Shown piece by piece: positions 776-41,924 of a DNA stretch of 64,000 bases. Below the pieces are notes generated by a model that ran no database searches, was not told where the DNA came from, and worked only from the letters and a program-made list of their open reading frames with translations. The position numbers and the translations under genes are program-made. The stretch spans positions 1 through 64,000 of the IMG/VR virus record IMGVR_UViG_2894097338_000001; one strand, 5' to 3'. How positions within the stretch are numbered: the first letter of the stretch is position 1; each line of letters opens with the position of its first letter. The stretch comes from a virus. Taxonomy: Duplodnaviria > Caudoviricetes.

Positions 776-790
776 GAAGGAGGTGACAAA

Positions 791-10992: not shown

Positions 10993-13017
10993 TTGGCTTT
11001 AAGTGGAGTTATAAATGGAACATTTAGTGGAACGGCAGCTACTAATGTGAAACCAGTATTAGAGTGGAAGGCAACGCAAAATATTTCCAATAATACATCT
11101 GCCGTAACAGTCTCTTTAGTTTTTATAAAATCAAATAGCTACTGGTATCCATACAACTTAGGAGGACATAATGTCGCTATTACTATAAATGGTAATAACG
11201 CAACATCTAGTAGAGCTATTGATATGAGAAATACAAGTAGACAAGTAATATGGAGCAGAACTGTTACAGTCCCCCATAATGCGGACGGAACAAAAAGCTT
11301 GAATATTGGTGGGTCTGGCTCAACTGGTATCAACCTTGGGAGTTACAATGTAAATGGAAGTATTACTCTAAATACTATCCCCAGAAGTTCTAGTATGTCT
11401 GTCTCACCAACCTCTCTTAATTTTGGTGAGACTGTTAAATTCAATATTTCTAGAGCAAGTGGATCGTTCACCCACTTAATTAATTATAATATCAACGGTA
11501 CTAGTGGTAATGCAGTAGCCAAAACGAATAGCACGACTCCAACATGGACTATACCGCTAGACTTGATGAAGCATTGCACCACAGCAACATCTATAAACGT
11601 AACGCTGTGGCTAGATACATATAACGGAAACTCAAAGATAGGTGTTAAACAATACTCTGTAAAAGTAAATATTCCAGCATCTGTTACTCCAACAATCTCT
11701 CTATTCTCTACAGTTGAGAAGAATACAAAAATTTCAACACTTGGATTAGCTGCTAACAATTTTCTACAGGGTAACTCTCAGATAGAATGCACTAGTAGCG
11801 CCTCCTCTCAATATGGAGCGTCTATTGTTAAATCTACAATCGATATAACTGGTTTTTCTAGTATTAACAGTGGGAATACAGTAGTGAACTTAGCTGGAAT
11901 GACTGGACAAGTTGGTGCAAAAACAGCCAAGCTAACTGTAACAGACTCAAGGGGGAGAACAGCTGAATCTAGTAAGGAAATTACAATTCATGCATATGAG
12001 CCACCTAAGATTAACAGCTTCAACGCAGAGAGAAAAGGTACAAATATAGTAGTTACTAAGTCATGTACATACTCTGAAGTTGGATCAAATACCATTTCTT
12101 ACTCGCTAACAAGAACTGGTGGGGCGACTGGCAGCGTAGGAGATATAACACATGATACAAATACATATACATTTGGTGGATATGCAGTAGATAAATCATA
12201 TGAGATTACAATGGAGATATCCGATAAGTTAAATAGCGCGTCTGGAATTGTCATTGTCGGAACTGATAAACAACTAATGCATATTGATCGAGATAATGGG
12301 ATAGGGATCGGAAAGTATAGAGAGAACGGGATACTAGATGTGTCTGGCGATGTTTATATTGATGGAAAATTAAATCTGTCAAATGGATTCGAGTCAGTAT
12401 ACATTCCATCAAATTCAGATTTGGATAACTATAACAATGTAGGTTTTTACTATAATCCATCAAATGCGGAGGCTAAAACTATAAAAAATACTCCAGAAAA
12501 TTGGTCATTCTCACTGCTAGTAGAAAAACATGCTGGGGTAAGGCAAACACTTTCTATTTATCATGATGAGTTTCCAAGAACTTATGTTAGAAATTTCTAC
12601 GAAGGTGTCTGGGGGAAATGGAGACATCTTGGAGGATTTTACAAACAGGAAGAGATAGAGCCAGCGTCTGGATTCACGAAATACGGCACTGGAAGTGGAT
12701 CTAGCAACACTCCTTTGGTGATTAGAATGGGGAGTGTTGTAATGTTAACTGGAGCCTTTTCAAATACATCCGTAATAAATGGGAATAACACTATAAAAAT
12801 GGGGACAATACCGAAATGGGCTCGCCCAGATGGAAATATAATTGCCAGAAGCAAAAACCAGGCGTCTGGAGGCAACAGCCATTGGGTAGCTGTCGGATCT
12901 GATGGAACTATTAGCACTTCGAGGCATGGTTCTTCTGGCCAGTGGACTAATGCGAATGTTGGATCTTATTTAACCATAGATATGATGTATCTTGTAGAAA
13001 ATTCTGATAGTTATTAG
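10993..13017 (+). CDS. DUF859-like siphophage minor structural/receptor-binding protein with pyocin-knob-like C-terminus
   Basis: 674 aa; V.V.HNADGTKS, L.TIPR.S, TDSRGRT motifs; DLDNY...G.Y and YVRN..G.W..W region. Confidence 0.75.
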   Translation: MALSGVINGTFSGTAATNVKPVLEWKATQNISNNTSAVTVSLVFIKSNSYWYPYNLGGHNVAITINGNNATSSRAIDMRNTSRQVIWSRTVTVPHNADGTKSLNIGGSGSTGINLGSYNVNGSITLNTIPRSSSMSVSPTSLNFGETVKFNISRASGSFTHLINYNINGTSGNAVAKTNSTTPTWTIPLDLMKHCTTATSINVTLWLDTYNGNSKIGVKQYSVKVNIPASVTPTISLFSTVEKNTKISTLGLAANNFLQGNSQIECTSSASSQYGASIVKSTIDITGFSSINSGNTVVNLAGMTGQVGAKTAKLTVTDSRGRTAESSKEITIHAYEPPKINSFNAERKGTNIVVTKSCTYSEVGSNTISYSLTRTGGATGSVGDITHDTNTYTFGGYAVDKSYEITMEISDKLNSASGIVIVGTDKQLMHIDRDNGIGIGKYRENGILDVSGDVYIDGKLNLSNGFESVYIPSNSDLDNYNNVGFYYNPSNAEAKTIKNTPENWSFSLLVEKHAGVRQTLSIYHDEFPRTYVRNFYEGVWGKWRHLGGFYKQEEIEPASGFTKYGTGSGSSNTPLVIRMGSVVMLTGAFSNTSVINGNNTIKMGTIPKWARPDGNIIARSKNQASGGNSHWVAVGSDGTISTSRHGSSGQWTNANVGSYLTIDMMYLVENSDSY

Positions 13018-13033
13018 AAAAGGGAGTGTTTAT

Positions 13034-13453
13034 ATGAATGGACTGATCGAAATTAAAGGGGATGACTTTACTAGAATATTTCTTGAAGAAATGTACGAAT
13101 CTCAAAAAAATGGAGCGTTAAGCGAGTTTGTCCTAGTAAACAGAATAGCATTTTTAAAAAATATTATAGATGATAGCCATATTGAATTTGATAAAATAAT
13201 TGAAATATCAAGTCATCTTTCAGAAATTGACGACAAAGACTCTTATGAGGTTTTTATAGCAGACTTCTTGCTTGGTAAAGAGATAAACGTTGAAAAATAT
13301 ATCAAAAAAGAAGAAAGCGTAAATGTTTTAGATGAAATAGAAAACTTAAAAGAAAGATTGAGAGTGGCGTCAATAGAAAATAAAGATTTGGAGAATCAAG
13401 TCAAGCAATCTCAAGAGCTAGTAATGGAAGCAATTGATTTGATATTATCATAA
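13034..13453 (+). CDS. Fibre-associated acidic/coiled-coil protein (XkdW-like position)
   Basis: 139 aa; stop codon coincides with the IS110 junction. Confidence 0.6.
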   Translation: MNGLIEIKGDDFTRIFLEEMYESQKNGALSEFVLVNRIAFLKNIIDDSHIEFDKIIEISSHLSEIDDKDSYEVFIADFLLGKEINVEKYIKKEESVNVLDEIENLKERLRVASIENKDLENQVKQSQELVMEAIDLILS

Positions 13454-13558
13454 AACAAAGCTAGCTATTAAATAGTCAAGTGAAAGTTATTAAATACTTT
13501 TTGATTTTGATATTTATTTTTAAGCAACTTAAATAAACCTAAAAATAATAGAAAAAAA

Positions 13559-14776
13559 TTAATTTACATCTATATTTTTAGGTAAATGAACTTCATAAGG
13601 CTTGTTTTGAGTCCAAACAGCAAAAATGATGTTAACCATTTTTCTTGAAACAGCACCAACTGCAGTACCATGTGATTTACCACGTTGTTTTAATTTTTGG
13701 TAATAGATGGATAAAGCAGGGTCATGAAACGCTGCAATAAAAGCAGCTTGCCAAATGGCTCGCCTAAGATAGGGAGACCCACGTTTAGACAGTTTGTTTT
13801 TAGTTCCTGTGAAATCACCAGATTGATGAACTGAGGCGTCTAAACCGGCAAAAGCAAGTAATTGACTAGGTTTTTTGAAACGATTGATATCTCCAATTTC
13901 GCCCATAATCACTGCAGCTGTAATGTCACCAATTCCAGTAATTGTAGTTAAGTAATTGTCCTGTGTTGCAATAATTTCATGGATTTCAGATTCAATTTGG
14001 ATAATTTGCCGTTCAATTAATCTAATCTGTTCCAGCATTATCTGAATCTCAAGTTTAAAGACGTCTGCAGCAATTGAAATTCCAAAGGAATTAGAAGCAA
14101 GTTCTTTAAGTTTCATTACTTTCTTTTCAGAACGCTCTATGCCAAACCTCTTTTTACTCGCTAGATGAATTGTTTCAATTAACAACTCAGTATCTAGTTG
14201 AAGAATATCTTCAGGTAATGGCGAATTTAGAAGGATTTCAGTGGAAGACGAACCAAAAATATCAGAAAAAATCTTTTCATATTCTGGAAAAACTTGATCT
14301 AAGCAAGTAATAATTTTTCTCTTTAAGTCAGATGAACTATCTACCAAACTATATCGGAAACGCTCCAGTTGTTTTAAACGAAAGATGTCTTCCGTAGGTA
14401 AAGACGTTTTCTCAGGCAAATCCATTCTAATTACTTGAGCAATCAGTACAGCATCAATGGCATCAGTTTTAGTTTTTCTGATATAAAAATCTCGAAGAAC
14501 ATCTGATTGAATAGGATTAAAAGCAGTTACTGAAAAATCTAAGTCATTTAAAAAAGAATAAATAGCTAACCAATAATGACCTGTGGCTTCCATTCCAATC
14601 ATTGCATTATCAACATTAACATCGTGTTTATTAAAGAAATTAAGAAGTTCCAGACTCCCTTTTTTAGTATTTGTAATTCTTAATGTTTTACCAATAGGGG
14701 ATCCTTTTTCATCAACTAAAGCAACTTCATGATTTCTTTTACCAATGTCAATACCAACAAAGAACATAAAAATCAA
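13559..14776 (-). CDS. IS110 transposase/recombinase (DEDD RuvC-like + Tnp20)
   Basis: GIDIGK, MEATGHYW, KTDAIDA, GIG..TAA..GEIGDI.RF, AGL..SVHQSG, SKRGSPYLR motifs intact. Confidence 0.95.
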   Translation of the reverse strand: MIFMFFVGIDIGKRNHEVALVDEKGSPIGKTLRITNTKKGSLELLNFFNKHDVNVDNAMIGMEATGHYWLAIYSFLNDLDFSVTAFNPIQSDVLRDFYIRKTKTDAIDAVLIAQVIRMDLPEKTSLPTEDIFRLKQLERFRYSLVDSSSDLKRKIITCLDQVFPEYEKIFSDIFGSSSTEILLNSPLPEDILQLDTELLIETIHLASKKRFGIERSEKKVMKLKELASNSFGISIAADVFKLEIQIMLEQIRLIERQIIQIESEIHEIIATQDNYLTTITGIGDITAAVIMGEIGDINRFKKPSQLLAFAGLDASVHQSGDFTGTKNKLSKRGSPYLRRAIWQAAFIAAFHDPALSIYYQKLKQRGKSHGTAVGAVSRKMVNIIFAVWTQNKPYEVHLPKNIDVN

Positions 14777-14794
14777 TTCCTTTCATTAGGATTT

Positions 14795-14962
14795 GTCAGA
14801 TAGTAAGCTACCCTCTATGACTCTTGGACGACATAGCCTCGTTAGATATTCAGAAACGTTGTTCTATCTAGCTCATACATGTACTAGTCTCAAGAGTAGA
14901 GGCATCAATCTTTCGAAGGAAGACAGGGCTTCAAGGAGGTGACGGATGACCTCTATCTGCTT
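14795..14962 (-). ncRNA. Candidate IS110 bridge/seek RNA
   Basis: Non-coding region upstream of transposase folds by eye: CAGATAG/CTATCTG outer stem, TAGAGG-CATC/GATG-CCTCTA arm whose loop has TCACCTCCTTG, CTCTTG/CAAGAG arm with TAGATA/TATCTA inner stem. Confidence 0.65.
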
Positions 14963-15047
14963 AATACAATTCTAAAACACAAAGTGATTTGAATATACAT
15001 AGAATCAAAAAATGATTCTAATAATACTATACGAGGAGGTGAAATAA

Positions 15048-15212
15048 ATGGATAGAAAAGGAAACATGGAAAGATTTCCAAATCTTATAATGATGTACGC
15101 AGACCACGTAATGAGGGGGACAAGATCTATAGATAGCGTACCAGAAAAGATTAGAGAAGACGTATCTTTTGTTGTCGAAGAGGCAACAAAAAAGCAAGCA
15201 AGCGAGTTTTAG
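15048..15212 (+). CDS. Small fibre-associated protein (CD1375/XkdX-like, 54 aa, not in ORF track)
   Basis: GAGGAGGTGA RBS; ..YADHVMRGTRSIDSVPEKIREDV.. pattern. Confidence 0.75.
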   Translation: MDRKGNMERFPNLIMMYADHVMRGTRSIDSVPEKIREDVSFVVEEATKKQASEF

Positions 15213-15326
15213 TATATGCAATAACTTTCGCTATAGGTTTAATTACAGGAATTACATTTATGATTTAGTCTTTTAGTATATAGCGAAAAGTATTTTAGTA
15301 AAAGGGATCTTCTAAGGGAGATAGAA

Positions 15327-15812
15327 ATGTACGGAATGGTTAGTAAATTAATAATTGGAACTATCCAAAAGATGTCTACATTGACATTTTTTGACCATTT
15401 AATTGTTTTTGGTATAAGTATATCAAGTCTATTAATAGGAAGTTGGACTGATGCTATGAGCCTGTTAATTTTGTTACAATTGATAGATGTTGCAACTGGG
15501 TTAACAAAGGGTAAGAGAGGAAGAAAGCTGTCTTCAAGTGAGTTAAAAAAAGGTGCTAAGTCTAAGTTCGGAGGATGGCTATATATTATAGTAGGTAATG
15601 CAATAGACGGCCTTCTAACATTCGGCACCCCAGTTGCAAAAACATTCGTTGTATCATACTTAATTGTTATGGAATTAATGAGTATTGTTGAGAATGCAGA
15701 AGAGCTTGGGGCACCAGGAGCACCAAAATTTATCACAAAATACCTAGACAGTGCCAAGAGCCAGTTAGATAATGGCAAGAATCCTAATGAAAAAGATTCG
15801 GATACAAAATAA
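15327..15812 (+). CDS. Holin (phage holin family 4-like)
   Basis: Three hydrophobic segments, LIDVATG..K, ELMSIVENAEELG motif. Confidence 0.85.
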   Translation: MYGMVSKLIIGTIQKMSTLTFFDHLIVFGISISSLLIGSWTDAMSLLILLQLIDVATGLTKGKRGRKLSSSELKKGAKSKFGGWLYIIVGNAIDGLLTFGTPVAKTFVVSYLIVMELMSIVENAEELGAPGAPKFITKYLDSAKSQLDNGKNPNEKDSDTK

Positions 15813-15816
15813 ATTA

Positions 15817-15854
15817 GCATAAGTATTGACAACATAATATTTTTGGTATAGTAT
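15817..15854 (+). promoter_or_regulatory. Sigma-A-like promoter containing 17-bp phage element
   Basis: GCATAAGTATTGACAAC then TG-N-TATAGT (15847) or TAGTAT (15849). Confidence 0.7.
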
Positions 15855-15943
15855 TATGTTATGGGCGATAAAGAAGAGAGATATTGCGTCTTTCTTCTTT
15901 TTCTAAAAGCCATAACTAATTACAACATAGGAGTGAGAGAAGA

Positions 15944-16690
15944 ATGGTACAATTTAAAACACTTCGCAATGGCGAAGGGGAGGAAAGACGAGTTCGTGAG
16001 GTGTGCTCATCTGGAAATATGTCGGTCATTGTTTATGAGCCGAGCAAAGAAGATGTGAATACACTTTTACGTATGCAGGAGGATATGATCGAAACAGATT
16101 CTAGTGGTGAGGTTAAAATCAAGGTTGGTGAGTCACAAATGATTCGAGAAATCTATCCACTTTTAACAGATTTAGAAGGATTTGAAGACTTGACTGATGA
16201 GGAGATTGAGGACATCACAGATAATCCATCAATTGCTTTAATCCAGGCGACATCTGTAATTACTCAGATTATTCTGGAAGTTTATAAAATAACGATTTTA
16301 TCAGTTCGTCAACAAATGGTAGAACAGGATTTCGAATTTGAGACATTCCGTTTCAATCAACATGCAGCACAAAAAATTATGACAACTGTTTCAGCTCTCG
16401 ACGGAATTGATGGAATCGAGAAGCGAACGAAAGAAGCAGAAAAGGAGTTAGATGAATTATCAGCTCGACGTCACGAAAAAGAAATGGCAAAAATCTTTGA
16501 AGAGACACAGGGATTTTTAGAAATTGAAGAAGCATCAAATGCCGCTAAAAAGTCGGAGGGGACAACGACAGAAAAGAAAATCACTTCAAGCGTACCAATG
16601 ACAGCACCATTAAGTCCTGGTGATGAAACTCCAGAGGACGTTATCAAACGAATGAACAAAACGTTTGATATCAACGTGAATAACGACTAA
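15944..16690 (+). CDS. Probable tail assembly chaperone
   Basis: 248 aa acidic helical protein upstream of tape measure. Confidence 0.5.
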   Translation: MVQFKTLRNGEGEERRVREVCSSGNMSVIVYEPSKEDVNTLLRMQEDMIETDSSGEVKIKVGESQMIREIYPLLTDLEGFEDLTDEEIEDITDNPSIALIQATSVITQIILEVYKITILSVRQQMVEQDFEFETFRFNQHAAQKIMTTVSALDGIDGIEKRTKEAEKELDELSARRHEKEMAKIFEETQGFLEIEEASNAAKKSEGTTTEKKITSSVPMTAPLSPGDETPEDVIKRMNKTFDINVNND

Positions 16691-17187
16691 TGAATGTAAT
16701 GTCGGTCGGCGAACTTCATGCTCAATTAGCTGGTGATATTGCATCGGCGGTTGAGGGTGAAGTTAAGGCTTACTGTGAACAGGTTTTAAGAAAACACATA
16801 ATGAGAAGTGTATATAGCGGTGGCGGATCTCAGTATTACAATCGTACATATCAGTTCTTAAATGCGGTAGAGGTTACTGACGTCCATAAGAGTGGATCAT
16901 CGGTGAGCTTTAAAATAACCATAAACTCGTCAAAGATGGGGATAGCCAGCTCGTTAGGTAAAGGATTTAACGTGCATATGGGTTTTCCATCAAGAGGTGG
17001 AGGAATGGGAGCAAATATGACTGATGGTTTGGCCGAAGTGTTAAACGACGGTATTACAAGTAGGATTGTACCACGGAGAAAAGCTGCAAGATTCTTTGAG
17101 AGTGCTACATCTGAATTAGATGGATCACTAGCTGGAAAACTTGCTGGTGCTTTGAGGGCAAGAGGTTGGGAAGCTCGTGTAATTTAA
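16690..17187 (+). CDS. HK97 gp10-like tail completion protein
   Basis: 165 aa; Y.RT..F.N and PR..ARFFE motifs. Confidence 0.55.
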   Translation: MNVMSVGELHAQLAGDIASAVEGEVKAYCEQVLRKHIMRSVYSGGGSQYYNRTYQFLNAVEVTDVHKSGSSVSFKITINSSKMGIASSLGKGFNVHMGFPSRGGGMGANMTDGLAEVLNDGITSRIVPRRKAARFFESATSELDGSLAGKLAGALRARGWEARVI

Positions 17188-41537: not shown

Positions 41538-41924
41538 AAAGTTCTCACCTCCTTTTGAATAAACTGTATTTTAAGGATAGAATAACATCATATATCGAAT
41601 AAATCAACACAATAATAAAATAAGTGGATAAAGTATAGTTGTGATAGAGCTTGAACCAGACTTCCTTATAGAGGTTACACGATTGAATGTGTTTTGCATC
41701 AGAAAGCCTCCCCTCTAAATATAGGCGGTTATGAATGAGCATATCTATATTAAATACCTCCGTTAGTTATATTATATCATAATATTAAGTAATAAAAAGA
41801 TAAGGCATCGTGTATAAGACCTTATCTAAAATATTAAATATTAATCAGCTTACTTATTATTAGAGCTATGAATAATATACCCTGTATAACAAAGAATGCC
41901 TTTAGGAGCGATTTATAATCTAGA

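What the first reader, a model, noticed from the sequence alone, without database searches (positions are those of the whole stretch)
13450..15045. IS110 whose candidate bridge RNA carries an anti-Shine-Dalgarno guide
Seen: the flank beside the IS end is ACGAGGAGGTGAA (15031-15043), the RBS of the next phage gene. The IS non-coding end contains CAAGGAGGTGAC (14932-14943), i.e. UCACCUCCUUG on the transposase strand, in the loop of a TAGAGG-CATC/GATG-CCTCTA stem. This matches the target TCACCTCCTCG at 10 of 11 nt, the difference being a G-U wobble. Known: IS110 elements choose targets via bridge/seek RNA loops, and UCACCUCCU is the 16S rRNA 3' anti-SD; IS900-type elements also insert near RBSs. 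Inference: the element is RNA-programmed to land just upstream of strong RBSs, an abundant near-intergenic target on hosts and phages. Alternative: the internal copy is an outward RBS for a 9-codon ORF at 14946.
Basis: partly seen in the sequence, partly recalled or inferred. Interest (0 to 1): 0.8.

Follow-up and report, generated by a model that had tools for sequence, protein, structure and literature searches.

The report
RBS-homing IS110 with bridge RNA
This is an ordinary-looking IS110 insertion sequence whose built-in guide RNA carries the same letters as the tail of 16S ribosomal RNA, which steers the element to ribosome-binding sites just in front of genes, here a prophage gene.

Summary
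An IS110-family element (body 13461-15033, with AG core copies at 13459-60 and 15034-35, recombinase on the minus strand) lies in a prophage, directly against the RBS of a small phage gene.

Its 5' non-coding end encodes a canonical two-loop bridge RNA. UCACCUCCU (14942-14934) is the left target guide.

Evidence:
- In 54 homologues this guide covaries with the left flank (0 of 10,000 permutations).
- The right target guide and both donor guides covary with their partners too.
- The stems show compensatory changes in 20 of 23 pairs.
- Ten different insertions of the same element lie at AG|GAGGT-like words (8 of 10 exact).
- One sister-species empty site reads AAAAG|GAGGT plus 7 nt plus ATG.

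- The real target half is flank plus CT core. The "CG" belongs to the IS, so no G-U wobble is needed.
- Exact 9-mer sites are few: 26 in the host genome.
- Several insertions hit look-alikes that are not gene starts.

The 9-codon ORF alternative is rejected.

Bridge RNAs (2024) and RBS targeting by IS900 are already known, so this is a new member of a known kind. The new points are the 16S-tail mimicry and the clade-wide RBS bias. I saw no transcription or activity data.

The parts
13459..13460 (.). Core dinucleotide copy (AG on +, CT on the recombinase strand) at the RE/right-target junction
   Evidence: All six A-end junctions of the identical element end in ..A|AG before CTAGCTATT. Contigs of other runs begin to match at 13457/13458.
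13461..15033 (-). Body of the IS110-family element (1573 bp; 1575 bp with one core)
   Evidence: 100% identical copies in G005 and G018 stop at these ends. Contigs of 4 public runs stop matching at 13457-58 and 15040-43. There is a single copy in the own genome.
13559..14767 (-). DEDD/RuvC-like plus Tnp recombinase gene, 402 aa from ATG 14767 (405 aa from TTG 14776)
   Evidence: PF01548 at 1.7e-41 and PF02371 at 4.2e-27. 7978 relatives were found among 8000 scored candidates, and sources name them IS110 family transposase.
13474..13479 (-). TTGACT, the -35 half of the promoter that forms only across the joined RE-LE circle junction
   Evidence: The script gives TTGACT, a 17-nt spacer and TATAGT across the core. 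The spacing is 17 nt in 46 of 54 homologues, 16 nt in 2, and not called in 6. The principle is described for IS110 elements in PMC11208160.
15026..15031 (-). TATAGT, the -10 half of the junction promoter, at the very start of the LE
   Evidence: The LE start (C/T/A)GTATAAT-like is conserved in homologues. No promoter above chance is found in the linear integrated form.
14898..14954 (-). [quoted passage not shown]
   Evidence: RNAalifold on 43 sequences. Helix 1 has compensatory changes in 6 of 8 pairs and helix 2 in 2 of 2.
14934..14942 (-). Left target guide UCACCUCCU (plus U at 14933). It has the same sense as left flank plus CT core and pairs with the sense strand of the downstream gene.
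   Evidence: In 54 homologues there are 1.48 mismatches per 7 flank positions with the own flank against 3.79 with other flanks, and 0 of 10,000 permutations reach this. It matches the window's own flank 9 of 9.
14910..14914 (-). Right target guide GAAAG, complementary to CT core plus TTC
   Evidence: In 61 homologues there are 0.39 mismatches per 3 non-core positions against 1.65, and 0 of 10,000 permutations reach this. The window's right flank reads CT-TTG on the recombinase strand, a 4 of 5 match.
14821..14896 (-). [quoted passage not shown]
   Evidence: Helices 3 and 4 have compensatory changes in 12 of 13 pairs. In the window's own row the outer stem is shifted by 2 nt relative to the MAFFT columns (read by hand).
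14868..14873 (-). Left donor guide AGCUAG, identical to the last six bases of the RE before the core (13461-13466 reverse-complemented)
   Evidence: The loop hexamer (AGCTGG, AGTTGG, AGCCGG, AGCTAG or AGTTAG) is found at the element's own RE end, behind TTGAY, in 71 of 78 homologues.
14838..14842 (-). Right donor guide ACGAG, complementary to CT core plus CGT at the LE start
   Evidence: The first LE base after the core is complementary to the matching loop base in 53 of 54 homologues (C with G 36, T with A 16, A with T 1).
15034..15035 (.). Second core copy (AG) at the LE/left-target junction
   Evidence: In the empty-site comparison the two flanks abut with a single AG.
15036..15047 (+). Left-target flank GAGGTGAAATAA. 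Together with the core it keeps the SD AGGAGGTGA of the next gene intact.
   Evidence: The ATG at 15048 lies 12 nt after the core.
15048..15212 (+). Targeted phage gene (54 aa, phrog_1382), followed by a holin gene at 15327-15812
   Evidence: PHROGs: phrog_1382 at 7.3e-11 and holin phrog_199 at 2.1e-13. The upstream tail protein is phrog_372 at 4.5e-104.

Best explanation
An intact IS110-group insertion sequence sits in a prophage between the tail genes and the lysis genes. Its left non-coding end encodes a canonical bridge RNA with two internal loops.

**Target loop.** Its 5' side, UCACCUCCU, pairs with the strand AGGAGGTGA. Its 3' side, GAAAG, pairs with CTTTC. Together they specify the word GAAAG-GAGGTGA read in the sense of the target gene. 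That is an extended Shine-Dalgarno sequence with the AG/CT core inside it.

**Donor loop.** AGCUAG and ACGAG recognise the element's own joined ends.

**Likely cycle.** Excision to a circle joins a -35 box in the RE to a -10 box in the LE. This switches on the bridge RNA and the recombinase. The recombinase then exchanges strands at the CT core.

**Consequences.** The element lands in one orientation, with the recombinase gene diverging from the targeted gene. Because the core is duplicated, the gene keeps its full SD.

**Shown here:** the anatomy, all four guide-partner matches and their covariation, the junctions, and one empty site.

**Inferred:** transcription, RNA-protein binding, and the recombination chemistry, all by analogy with IS621.
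For: - **Recombinase.** Both domains are present.
- **Boundaries and core.** They come from identical copies in two other genomes and from contigs of four public runs.
- **Empty site.** In sister species G016 the A-flank and B-flank of one G005 copy abut exactly, with a single AG. The site reads ..CCCAAAAG|GAGGTTTTCTTATG, in front of a GNAT gene.
- **Junctions.** Ten different LE-side junctions of the same element were read. Eight start GAGGT, one GGAGGT and one GTGGT. The next base is G in 5 of the 8, and A follows in 4 of those 5.
- **Left target guide against left flank.** Own-pair match is 93-94% at positions -6 to -4 (39-56% in cross pairs), 70% at -7, 56% at -8 and 48% at -9. None of 10,000 permutations reach this (n = 54).
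- **Right target guide against right flank.** 0 of 10,000 permutations reach the observed match (n = 61).
- **Donor guides.** The left donor guide equals the element's own RE end in 71 of 78. The right donor guide base is complementary in 53 of 54.
- **Structure.** 92% of cells are paired, against 41-48% when partners are slid. Compensatory changes occur in 20 of 23 pairs. None of 500 shuffles reach this.
- **Junction promoter.** TTGACT, 17 nt, TATAGT.
[quoted passage not shown] The core is CT and a promoter forms across the RE-LE junction (passages read).
- **RBS context in the clade.** 25 of 50 homologue insertions have a start codon with an ORF of at least 50 aa 3-20 nt beyond the core, against 14.7% at random positions.
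- **Relatives at phage RBSs.** A portal gene and a prohead protease gene in viral contigs, and a holin gene for ISBth13.
Against: - There is no direct RNA evidence. The RNA-library runs are contigs and may hold DNA.
- Single-sequence folding does not beat shuffles: z = -1.32 for 258 nt, and z = 0.31 for 168 nt with a different minimum-energy fold.
- Rfam gives only three chance-level hits.
- The own genome holds one copy, although 24 other exact AGGAGGTGA words are free.
- Of the six junctions with long flanks, three are not at recognisable gene starts: L011 has no ORF, L017 is a terminator-like hairpin, and L005 is GTGGTGA. The guide reads sequence, not function.
- One junction (L017) is out of register by one base.
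- The left donor guide does not continue across the core (AU against CU).
- No empty site was found for the window's own prophage, so its pre-insertion site is inferred.
- Homologue loci are related, and the LE boundary was set by a motif. This fixes the two core positions, which I excluded from the statistics.
Confidence: 0.87

Rival explanations
1. The guide works as described, but the Shine-Dalgarno likeness is a by-product. The clade's enzyme or RNA fixes the letters around the core (C-CT-TT). Any guide built on that frame looks like CUCCUU, so landing at RBSs would be incidental rather than a selected homing strategy.
For: - Positions -3, core, +1 and +2 barely vary: C at -3 in 52 of 54 guides, and own and cross match of 0.98 against 0.91.
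- GAAAG or AAAAG is the right target guide in 35 of 61.
- Sub-clades from halophilic Bacillales use GCCCC, GCGCC, GCAAC or CTCG guides and sit at non-RBS sites.
- Only 25 of 50 insertions are at clear gene starts.
- 3 of the 6 long-flank junctions of this element are not gene starts.
Against: - Positions -4 to -6 are freely programmable and covary, yet 22 of 78 guides end in CCUCCU and 37 end in CUCCU.
- Five elements with recombinases 47-57% identical to the window's by best segment (L040, L060, L093, L099) share the full UCACCUCCU.
- Gene-start context is 50% against 14.7% at random positions.
- IS900, an IS110-family member from another phylum, has the target motif CATGNNNNNNTCTCCTT (PMC8141618).
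Confidence: 0.3
2. The internal AAGGAGGTGA is an outward-facing RBS for the 9-codon ORF at 14946-14975 on the + strand.
For: The SD-to-ATG spacing is good (GGAGGTGACGG then ATG) and the frame is open for 9 codons.
Against: - The ATG is formed by the 5' arm of the target-loop outer stem.
- The four homologues with the same guide have no ATG there (L040, L060, L093, L099).
- In most homologues the loop is not SD-like at all, yet it still matches its own flank.
- No promoter-like site faces this way on the + strand near it.
Confidence: 0.02
3. The loop acts at the RNA level as a mimic of the 16S tail, for example by pairing with SD sequences of mRNAs or of the recombinase mRNA to regulate translation, rather than as a DNA guide.
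For: UCACCUCCUU is identical to 10 consecutive letters of the 16S rRNA segment GGAUCACCUCCUUU given for S. aureus in PMC13009471, section 29. L093 and L131 carry GAUCACCUCCUU.
Against: - The loop covaries with the DNA flank of each element, which an RNA-only role does not predict.
- Guides in many relatives are not anti-SD-like.
- The architecture and the other three guides fit the DNA-bridging model.
- A side effect on mRNAs is not excluded.
Confidence: 0.04

Closest known systems
IS621 (E. coli) bridge recombinase and bridge RNA (Durrant et al. 2024, PMC11208160; Hiraizumi et al. 2024, PMC11208158, abstract only seen)
   Same: - The same two recombinase domains.
- An LE-encoded RNA with a target loop and a donor loop.
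[quoted passage not shown]
- A CT core.
- A promoter rebuilt across the RE-LE junction.
   Different: - The target word differs. IS621's wild-type target is ATCAGGCCTAC; here it is the SD-like TCACCTC-CT-TTC.
- No Rfam hit.
- The left donor guide does not read through the core.
- Activity is untested here.
IS900 of Mycobacterium avium subsp. paratuberculosis (Doran et al. 1997, seen only as a reference; Conde et al. 2021, PMC8141618, passages read)
   Same: - An IS110-family member.
- Its target motif CATGNNNNNNTCTCCTT is the reverse complement of an RBS plus start codon.
- It rarely disrupts coding sequence.
- The CTCCTT half-site and the orientation relative to the start codon are the same as here.
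   Different: - IS900 is said to carry a 'hed' ORF spanning the complementary strand that borrows the host RBS. Here the + strand of the element holds only ORFs of 46-49 aa.
- The host phylum differs.
- The papers I read do not link the IS900 motif to a bridge-RNA loop.
ISBth13 (Bacillus thuringiensis plasmids), the nearest relative that carries an ISfinder-type name in annotations
   Same: - 48% amino-acid identity.
- The same LE layout.
- Guide CCACCUCCUU, right target guide GAAAG, left donor guide AGUUGG equal to its own RE end.
- Inserted at TCACCTC-CT in front of the TTG start of a phage holin gene on pIS56-39, with right flank CT-TTC.
   Different: It is a different element, with different ends (LE CGTATGAT). 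I read one copy only. One paper search for the name gave a single unrelated paper.
CazIS110-1 (Caloranaerobacter azorensis; bioRxiv 10.1101/2025.10.25.684509, passages read)
   Same: An IS110 element with a bridge RNA from a Bacillota host, shown to be active in vivo and in vitro.
   Different: I saw no sequence or target for it in the passages read, so its relation to this clade is unknown.

Membership tests
IS110 group of the IS110 family (bridge recombinase systems) | Recombinase with an N-terminal DEDD/RuvC-like domain and a C-terminal Tnp domain | tested here: met
   PF01548 at 1.7e-41 (residues 7-164) and PF02371 at 4.2e-27 (274-360).
IS110 group of the IS110 family (bridge recombinase systems) | Long non-coding left end upstream of the recombinase gene, encoding an RNA with two internal loops closed by stems | tested here: met
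   The LE is 266 nt (14768-15033). The consensus structure of 43 sequences has 23 pairs, 20 of them with compensatory changes. 92% of cells are paired against 41-48% when slid, and 0 of 500 shuffles reach this. Single-sequence folding alone is not significant.
IS110 group of the IS110 family (bridge recombinase systems) | The 5' side of loop 1 (left target guide) matches left flank plus core in the same sense over about 8-9 nt | tested here: met
   The window matches 9 of 9. Across 54 homologues there are 1.48 against 3.79 mismatches per 7 positions, and 0 of 10,000 permutations reach this. Covariation is strong at -4 to -7 and weak at -8 and -9.
IS110 group of the IS110 family (bridge recombinase systems) | The 3' side of loop 1 (right target guide) is complementary to core plus right flank over 4-7 nt | tested here: met
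   The window matches 4 of 5. Across 61 homologues there are 0.39 against 1.65 mismatches per 3 positions, and 0 of 10,000 permutations reach this.
IS110 group of the IS110 family (bridge recombinase systems) | Loop 2 guides match the element's own RE end and LE start (the donor) | tested here: met
   The left donor guide hexamer equals the own RE end in 71 of 78. The right donor guide base is complementary to the first LE base in 53 of 54. In the window, AGCUAG matches the RE end and ACGAG matches CT+CGT.
IS110 group of the IS110 family (bridge recombinase systems) | A core dinucleotide (CT) is present at both junctions and once in the empty site, with no other duplication | tested here: met
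   AG/CT lies at both ends in all junctions read. The G016 empty site has the two flanks abutting with one AG. The window's own empty site was not found.
IS110 group of the IS110 family (bridge recombinase systems) | A sigma-70-type promoter is rebuilt across the joined RE-LE | tested here: met
   By sequence only: TTGACT, 17 nt, TATAGT. The spacer is 17 nt in 46 of 54 homologues.
IS110 group of the IS110 family (bridge recombinase systems) | The RNA is transcribed, binds the recombinase and directs recombination | not testable with these tools
   Contigs from RNA libraries hold the element (X15, X16) but cannot show transcription.
IS1111 group (seekRNA in the right end, subterminal inverted repeats) | The guide RNA is encoded downstream of the recombinase gene | tested here: not met
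   The RE is only 98 nt (13461-13558), and all four guide segments lie in the LE. Subterminal inverted repeats were not searched for.
IS900-type RBS-targeting elements | The target is an RBS plus start codon on the strand opposite to the recombinase (CATGN6TCTCCTT) | tested here: met
   On the recombinase strand the window reads CAT, 8 nt, then TCACCTC-CT. 25 of 50 homologues lie at gene starts. The motif is from PMC8141618.
IS900-type RBS-targeting elements | A 'hed'-like ORF spans the complementary strand and uses the captured RBS | tested here: not met
   No + strand ORF longer than 49 aa lies inside 13461-15033.
Rfam RNA families | A match at the gathering score to a curated family | tested here: not met
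   Three hits, all with E of 0.35 or more and all far below their gathering scores.

The most novel reading that the evidence does not exclude
The two target guides together spell a 12-letter word. Its first 11 letters match the 16S rRNA 3' segment GGAUCACCUCCUUU quoted in PMC13009471. The twelfth letter, C, matches only by my recall of Bacillota 16S.

On this reading, the element and much of its Bacillota-wide clade use an rRNA-mimicking guide. It homes to the one short motif that every host and every phage must keep.

Because the core is duplicated, the insertion leaves the SD of the gene intact. The site is then a near-neutral, universal safe harbour.

That would explain 100%-identical copies in two genera, in five organism labels, and in prophages.

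Two corollaries follow:
- The 3' end of every 16S gene is a perfect target in the sense orientation.
- The free loop could pair with mRNA SD sequences.
Probability: 0.2. Interest if true: 0.7.

Novelty: new member of a known kind. Interest (0 to 1): 0.45.

Why it matters
This is a worked natural example of how a bridge RNA's programmable loops encode an ecological strategy. The guide copies the anti-Shine-Dalgarno tail of 16S rRNA. The element therefore finds conserved intergenic landing sites in chromosomes, plasmids and phages, in a fixed orientation, and without destroying the RBS of the gene it lands beside.

It also links the long-known RBS preference of IS900 to the 2024 bridge-RNA mechanism.

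It shows that the preference is common in a large Bacillota clade. 26 of 54 insertion sites read CTCCT, and 25 of 50 lie at gene starts.

For annotation, it gives exact boundaries and guide positions, which allow targets of relatives to be predicted.

For phage biology, such elements can split late operons of prophages. Here the split falls between the tail genes and the lysis genes.

Tried and rejected
**Things that led nowhere**
1. Rfam on 13000-15500 gave only chance-level hits.
2. Near and distant DNA searches of the element and of both flanks in the phage collection found nothing. A near search of the element in the plasmid collection also found nothing.
3. A search of the left flank in 36 family genomes found no empty site for the window's own prophage.
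4. A metagenome scan with a 20-base LE-end string gave one stretch that is a chance match in unrelated DNA. The same string found nothing in viral contigs.
Only 3 have the IS context; the other 99 were dropped as chance.
6. Single-sequence folds were not better than shuffles.
7. The promoter and terminator scan of the integrated element found 9 promoter-like sites against 7.9 expected, and 0 terminators.
8. Reads: all four runs are contigs. Cover in the RNA libraries X15 and X16 does not show transcription. No joints or empty-site forms were seen.
9. The 16S idea could not be tested. The own genome's contig C46 is 1665 withheld bases. None of the 231 loci has an N run beside an LE, but this is not a proper test.
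10. I considered that the loop-flank match is chance, and rejected it. I considered a preference for lysis cassettes (the window and ISBth13 both sit near holin genes), and rejected it because relatives sit at portal, prohead protease and GNAT genes.
11. Paper searches for bridge RNA with Shine-Dalgarno (8 papers), IS110 with RBS terms, and ISBth13 found no paper that links a bridge or seek RNA guide to SD targeting. The library is partial.
12. Supplements are closed and I did not open any. Supplementary Data 1 and the target logos of PMC11208160 (5,511 target-RNA pairs), and Supplementary Figure 2 of PMC8141618, may already show SD-like targets.

**Rows dropped before counts**
- Of 81 sources (80 loci plus the window), 3 had no donor-loop anchor or were too short.
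- Of the remaining 78, 16 had no C[TC]NGTAT LE motif in range. These include the CCTAGAATA/CCTATAAT subgroup.
- A further 7 had fewer than 9 nt of flank, and 1 had a guide without a terminal CT. That leaves 54.
- One search stopped with a script error and was repeated.
- One search was a malformed request, corrected.
Full report
**What is there.**
- A minus-strand ORF (13559-14767, or 14776 from a TTG) carries the two domains of IS110-family recombinases: PF01548 at 1.7e-41 and PF02371 at 4.2e-27.
- The neighbours are phage genes: a tail protein (10993-13017, phrog_372), a 54-aa phrog_1382 protein (15048-15212) and a holin (15327-15812). The element therefore sits in a prophage between the tail and lysis genes.
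- The own genome (2.88 Mb, 55 contigs) has this one copy only.

**Boundaries and core.**
- Copies 100% identical over about 1580 bases occur in two genomes of another genus of the same family. G005 has four LE-side and four RE-side contig-end junctions. G018 has one copy.
- On the + strand every RE-side junction reads ..A|AG|CTAGCTATT. Every LE-side junction reads ..CTATACG|AG|G...
- Contigs of four public runs stop matching at 13457-58 and 15040-43.
- The body is therefore 13461-15033, with the dinucleotide AG (CT on the recombinase strand) on both sides.
- For one G005 copy, the RE-side flank (L019) and the LE-side flank (L015) map onto adjacent bases of sister species G016. There is no gap and a single AG. 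The site reads ..CCCAAAAG|GAGGTTTTCTTATG in front of a GNAT acetyltransferase gene.
- That is a simple insertion at a textbook RBS with duplication of the core.
- No empty site was found for the window's own prophage.

**The loop is the left target guide of a bridge RNA.** I fetched 80 homologous loci (45-69% identity, best tblastn segment) from Bacillota and other genomes.

*Structure.*
- Their 5' non-coding ends align well.
- They share two stem-closed internal loops: 23 consensus pairs, 20 with compensatory changes.
- 92% of cells are paired against 41-48% when the partners are slid, and 0 of 500 shuffles reach the observed values.

*Left target guide.*
- In the first loop, the 9 letters before the conserved UUG(A/G)(A/G) were compared with the 9 letters that precede the conserved LE start.
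- Among 54 usable loci (dropped rows are listed under Tried and rejected), the guide has 1.48 mismatches in the 7 non-core positions against its own flank and 3.79 against other flanks. None of 10,000 permutations reach this.
- Own-pair match is 93-94% at positions -6 to -4, 70% at -7, and about 50% at -8 and -9.

*The other three guides.*
- The 3' side of the same loop is complementary to core plus right flank: 0.39 against 1.65 mismatches per 3 positions, n = 61, 0 of 10,000 permutations.
- In the second loop, the 5' hexamer equals the element's own RE end in 71 of 78.
- The 3' side is complementary to the LE start in 53 of 54.

*Fit to the published model.*
- These are the rules published for IS621: 5' sides pair with the bottom strand, 3' sides with the top strand, the core is CT and is included in the pairing (PMC11208160, passages read).
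- The RE carries TTGACT and the LE starts with TATAGT. Joined across the core they are 17 nt apart. The spacer is 17 nt in 46 of 54 homologues.
- This fits the junction promoter described for IS110 elements, and the lack of any promoter above chance in the integrated form.

**What the guide says, and where the element lands.**

*The specified word.*
- In the window the left target guide is UCACCUCCU (14942-14934) and the right target guide is GAAAG (14914-14910).
- Read in the sense of the target gene they specify GAAAG-GAGGTGA, an extended Shine-Dalgarno word.
- The guide is identical to 10 consecutive letters of the 16S rRNA segment GGAUCACCUCCUUU quoted for S. aureus in PMC13009471, section 29.
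- That the own organism's 16S ends likewise rests on general knowledge. Its 16S contig is withheld.

*LE-side junctions of this same element.*
- Ten different junctions are now known: GAGGTGAAAT (the window), GAGGTAGAAAT, GAGGTAGAAAC, GAGGTCGTTC, GGAGGTGACT, GTGGTGATTG, GAGGTGCAAAG, GAGGTGATAAG, GAGGTGATTTT and GAGGTGAAGAT.
- Specificity is therefore tight for AG|GAGGT and relaxes at the two 5'-most guide letters. The covariation profile shows the same.

*RE-side flanks.*
- Nine different ones were read. The base next to the core is T on the recombinase strand in 9 of 9. The second base is T in 5 of 9.

*Gene-start context.*
- Of the six junctions with long flanks, three are followed by a start codon and a long ORF: 54 aa in the window, 183 aa, and at least 494 aa.
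- Three are not: no ORF, a terminator-like hairpin, and a GTGGTGA word.
- In three of the four junctions known only from 15-30 loose letters, an ATG or TTG lies 4-6 nt after GAGGTGA. Those ORFs cannot be checked.

- The 11-mer used for the '10 of 11 with a G-U wobble' comparison includes two bases of the IS itself.
- With the core model, the guide matches the inferred pre-insertion site 10 of 10 in the same sense.
- Exact sites are not very abundant. AGGAGGTGA occurs 26 times in the genome, 15 of them at starts of ORFs of at least 40 aa. The count includes the copy inside the IS and the junction itself.
- The alternative of an outward RBS for the 9-codon ORF is rejected. Its ATG is part of the stem arm. 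It is missing in the four homologues with the same guide. The loop is not SD-like in many relatives, yet it still matches their flanks.

**The clade.**
- SD-like guides are common in this clade. 37 of 78 end in CUCCU, 22 in CCUCCU, and 5 carry the full UCACCUCCU.
- 26 of 54 insertion sites read CTCCT.
- 25 of 50 loci with at least 100 nt of flank have a start codon plus an ORF of at least 50 aa 3-20 nt beyond the core on the opposite strand. At random positions the figure is 14.7%.
- Related elements sit at the RBS of a portal gene and of a prohead protease gene in viral contigs.
- ISBth13 (48% identity) sits at the RBS of a holin gene on a B. thuringiensis plasmid. Its own guides match.
- Other sub-clades, from halophilic Bacillales, carry GC-rich guides and non-RBS sites. 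The letters are therefore programmable.
- Whether the SD bias is selected, or follows from nearly fixed letters around the core, remains open (rival 1).

**Consequences, by inference.**
- The guide fixes the orientation, so the recombinase gene always diverges from the targeted gene.
- The core is duplicated, so the gene keeps AGGAGGTGA in full (15034-15042).
- No terminator-like site was found in 13300-15300 on either strand, so read-through from upstream genes is conceivable.
- Identical copies in two genera and in runs labelled with five organism codes point to recent horizontal spread. A target motif shared by all hosts and their phages would ease such spread.

**Comparison with what is known.**
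- The element passes every sequence-level test for the IS110 group with a bridge RNA. Transcription and activity could not be tested.
- It is not of the IS1111 type, because its guides lie in the LE.
- RBS targeting in the family is old knowledge for IS900. Its motif is CATGNNNNNNTCTCCTT (PMC8141618). Doran et al. 1997 was seen as a reference only.
- The hed-type ORF of IS900 is absent here.
- My searches found no paper that ties SD targeting to a bridge-RNA guide or notes the identity with the 16S tail.
- The supplements of PMC11208160 could not be opened and may contain such logos.
- I therefore file this as a new member of a known kind. The finding is moderately interesting as a clean natural case.

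**Limits.**
- There is no RNA or activity evidence.
- Single-sequence folds are not significant.
- The homologues are related. The LE boundary in them was set by a motif that fixes the core letters, which I left out of the statistics.
- Only the 80 best-scoring of 583 confirmed relatives were kept.

Noticed in passing
window 10993-17187: Prophage late region: a tail protein (phrog_372), a 139-aa ORF with no family, the IS, a phrog_1382 small protein, and a holin (phrog_199). The IS separates the lysis genes from the tail genes. No outward promoter and no terminator was predicted inside it, so the effect on lysis-gene expression is open.
   Followed up: partly
L223 (NC_020381.1 19916-22900), 600-620 and 2270-2300: ISBth13 on B. 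thuringiensis plasmid pIS56-39 lies directly in front of the TTG start of a phage holin gene. It has guide CCACCUCCUU, right target guide GAAAG and right flank CT-TTC. Only this one copy was read; many plasmids carry 1-4 places.
   Followed up: partly
L131:2426-3805 and L193:357-1235 (viral contigs): Relatives of the element are inserted at the RBS of a portal gene (phrog_2739) and of a prohead protease gene (PF04586). The L131 guide region reads GAUCACCUCCUU, twelve letters of the 16S tail.
   Followed up: partly
L023, L024, L026, L034 and L032, L036, L037, L066 (left flanks): Sub-clades from halophilic Bacillales have GC-rich guides (GCCCC, GCGCC, CUCG, UUCC). Their flanks look like repeated, non-coding sequence rather than RBSs, for example ..CCGCAGCGGTG.. 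and ..GGAAGACT... These may be REP-like targets.
   Followed up: no
L042, L043, L044 (upstream of the recombinase gene): These three elements have an LE about 110 nt longer than the rest. The extra part holds a long hairpin between the LE start and the target loop.
   Followed up: no
window 14933-14942: The DNA that encodes the left target guide is itself a perfect left half-site plus core (9 of 9), followed by a poor right half-site (TGA instead of TTC). Every bridge-RNA element must carry such an internal half-site. A 2026 preprint title on half-match recombination (search listing only) may bear on this.
   Followed up: no
window 14777-14800 and homologues (columns 230-245): The recombinase genes' own RBSs in this clade are mostly (A/G)AGGTG without a preceding AG (window: AAAGGAAT). 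In the inverse orientation they would therefore lack the CT core or the GGAGG word. This may spare the element from targeting itself.
   Followed up: no
G000 contig C46; genomes G005, G018: Contig C46 of the own genome is 1665 withheld bases, presumably the collapsed rRNA gene. Copies of the IS are 100% identical between two genera of one family, and public runs with five organism codes hold it in full.
   Followed up: partly
window 777-786 and 41545-41554: Two further exact AAGGAGGTGA words lie in the window, both in front of ORFs (144 aa and 474 aa). Both are unoccupied.
   Followed up: partly
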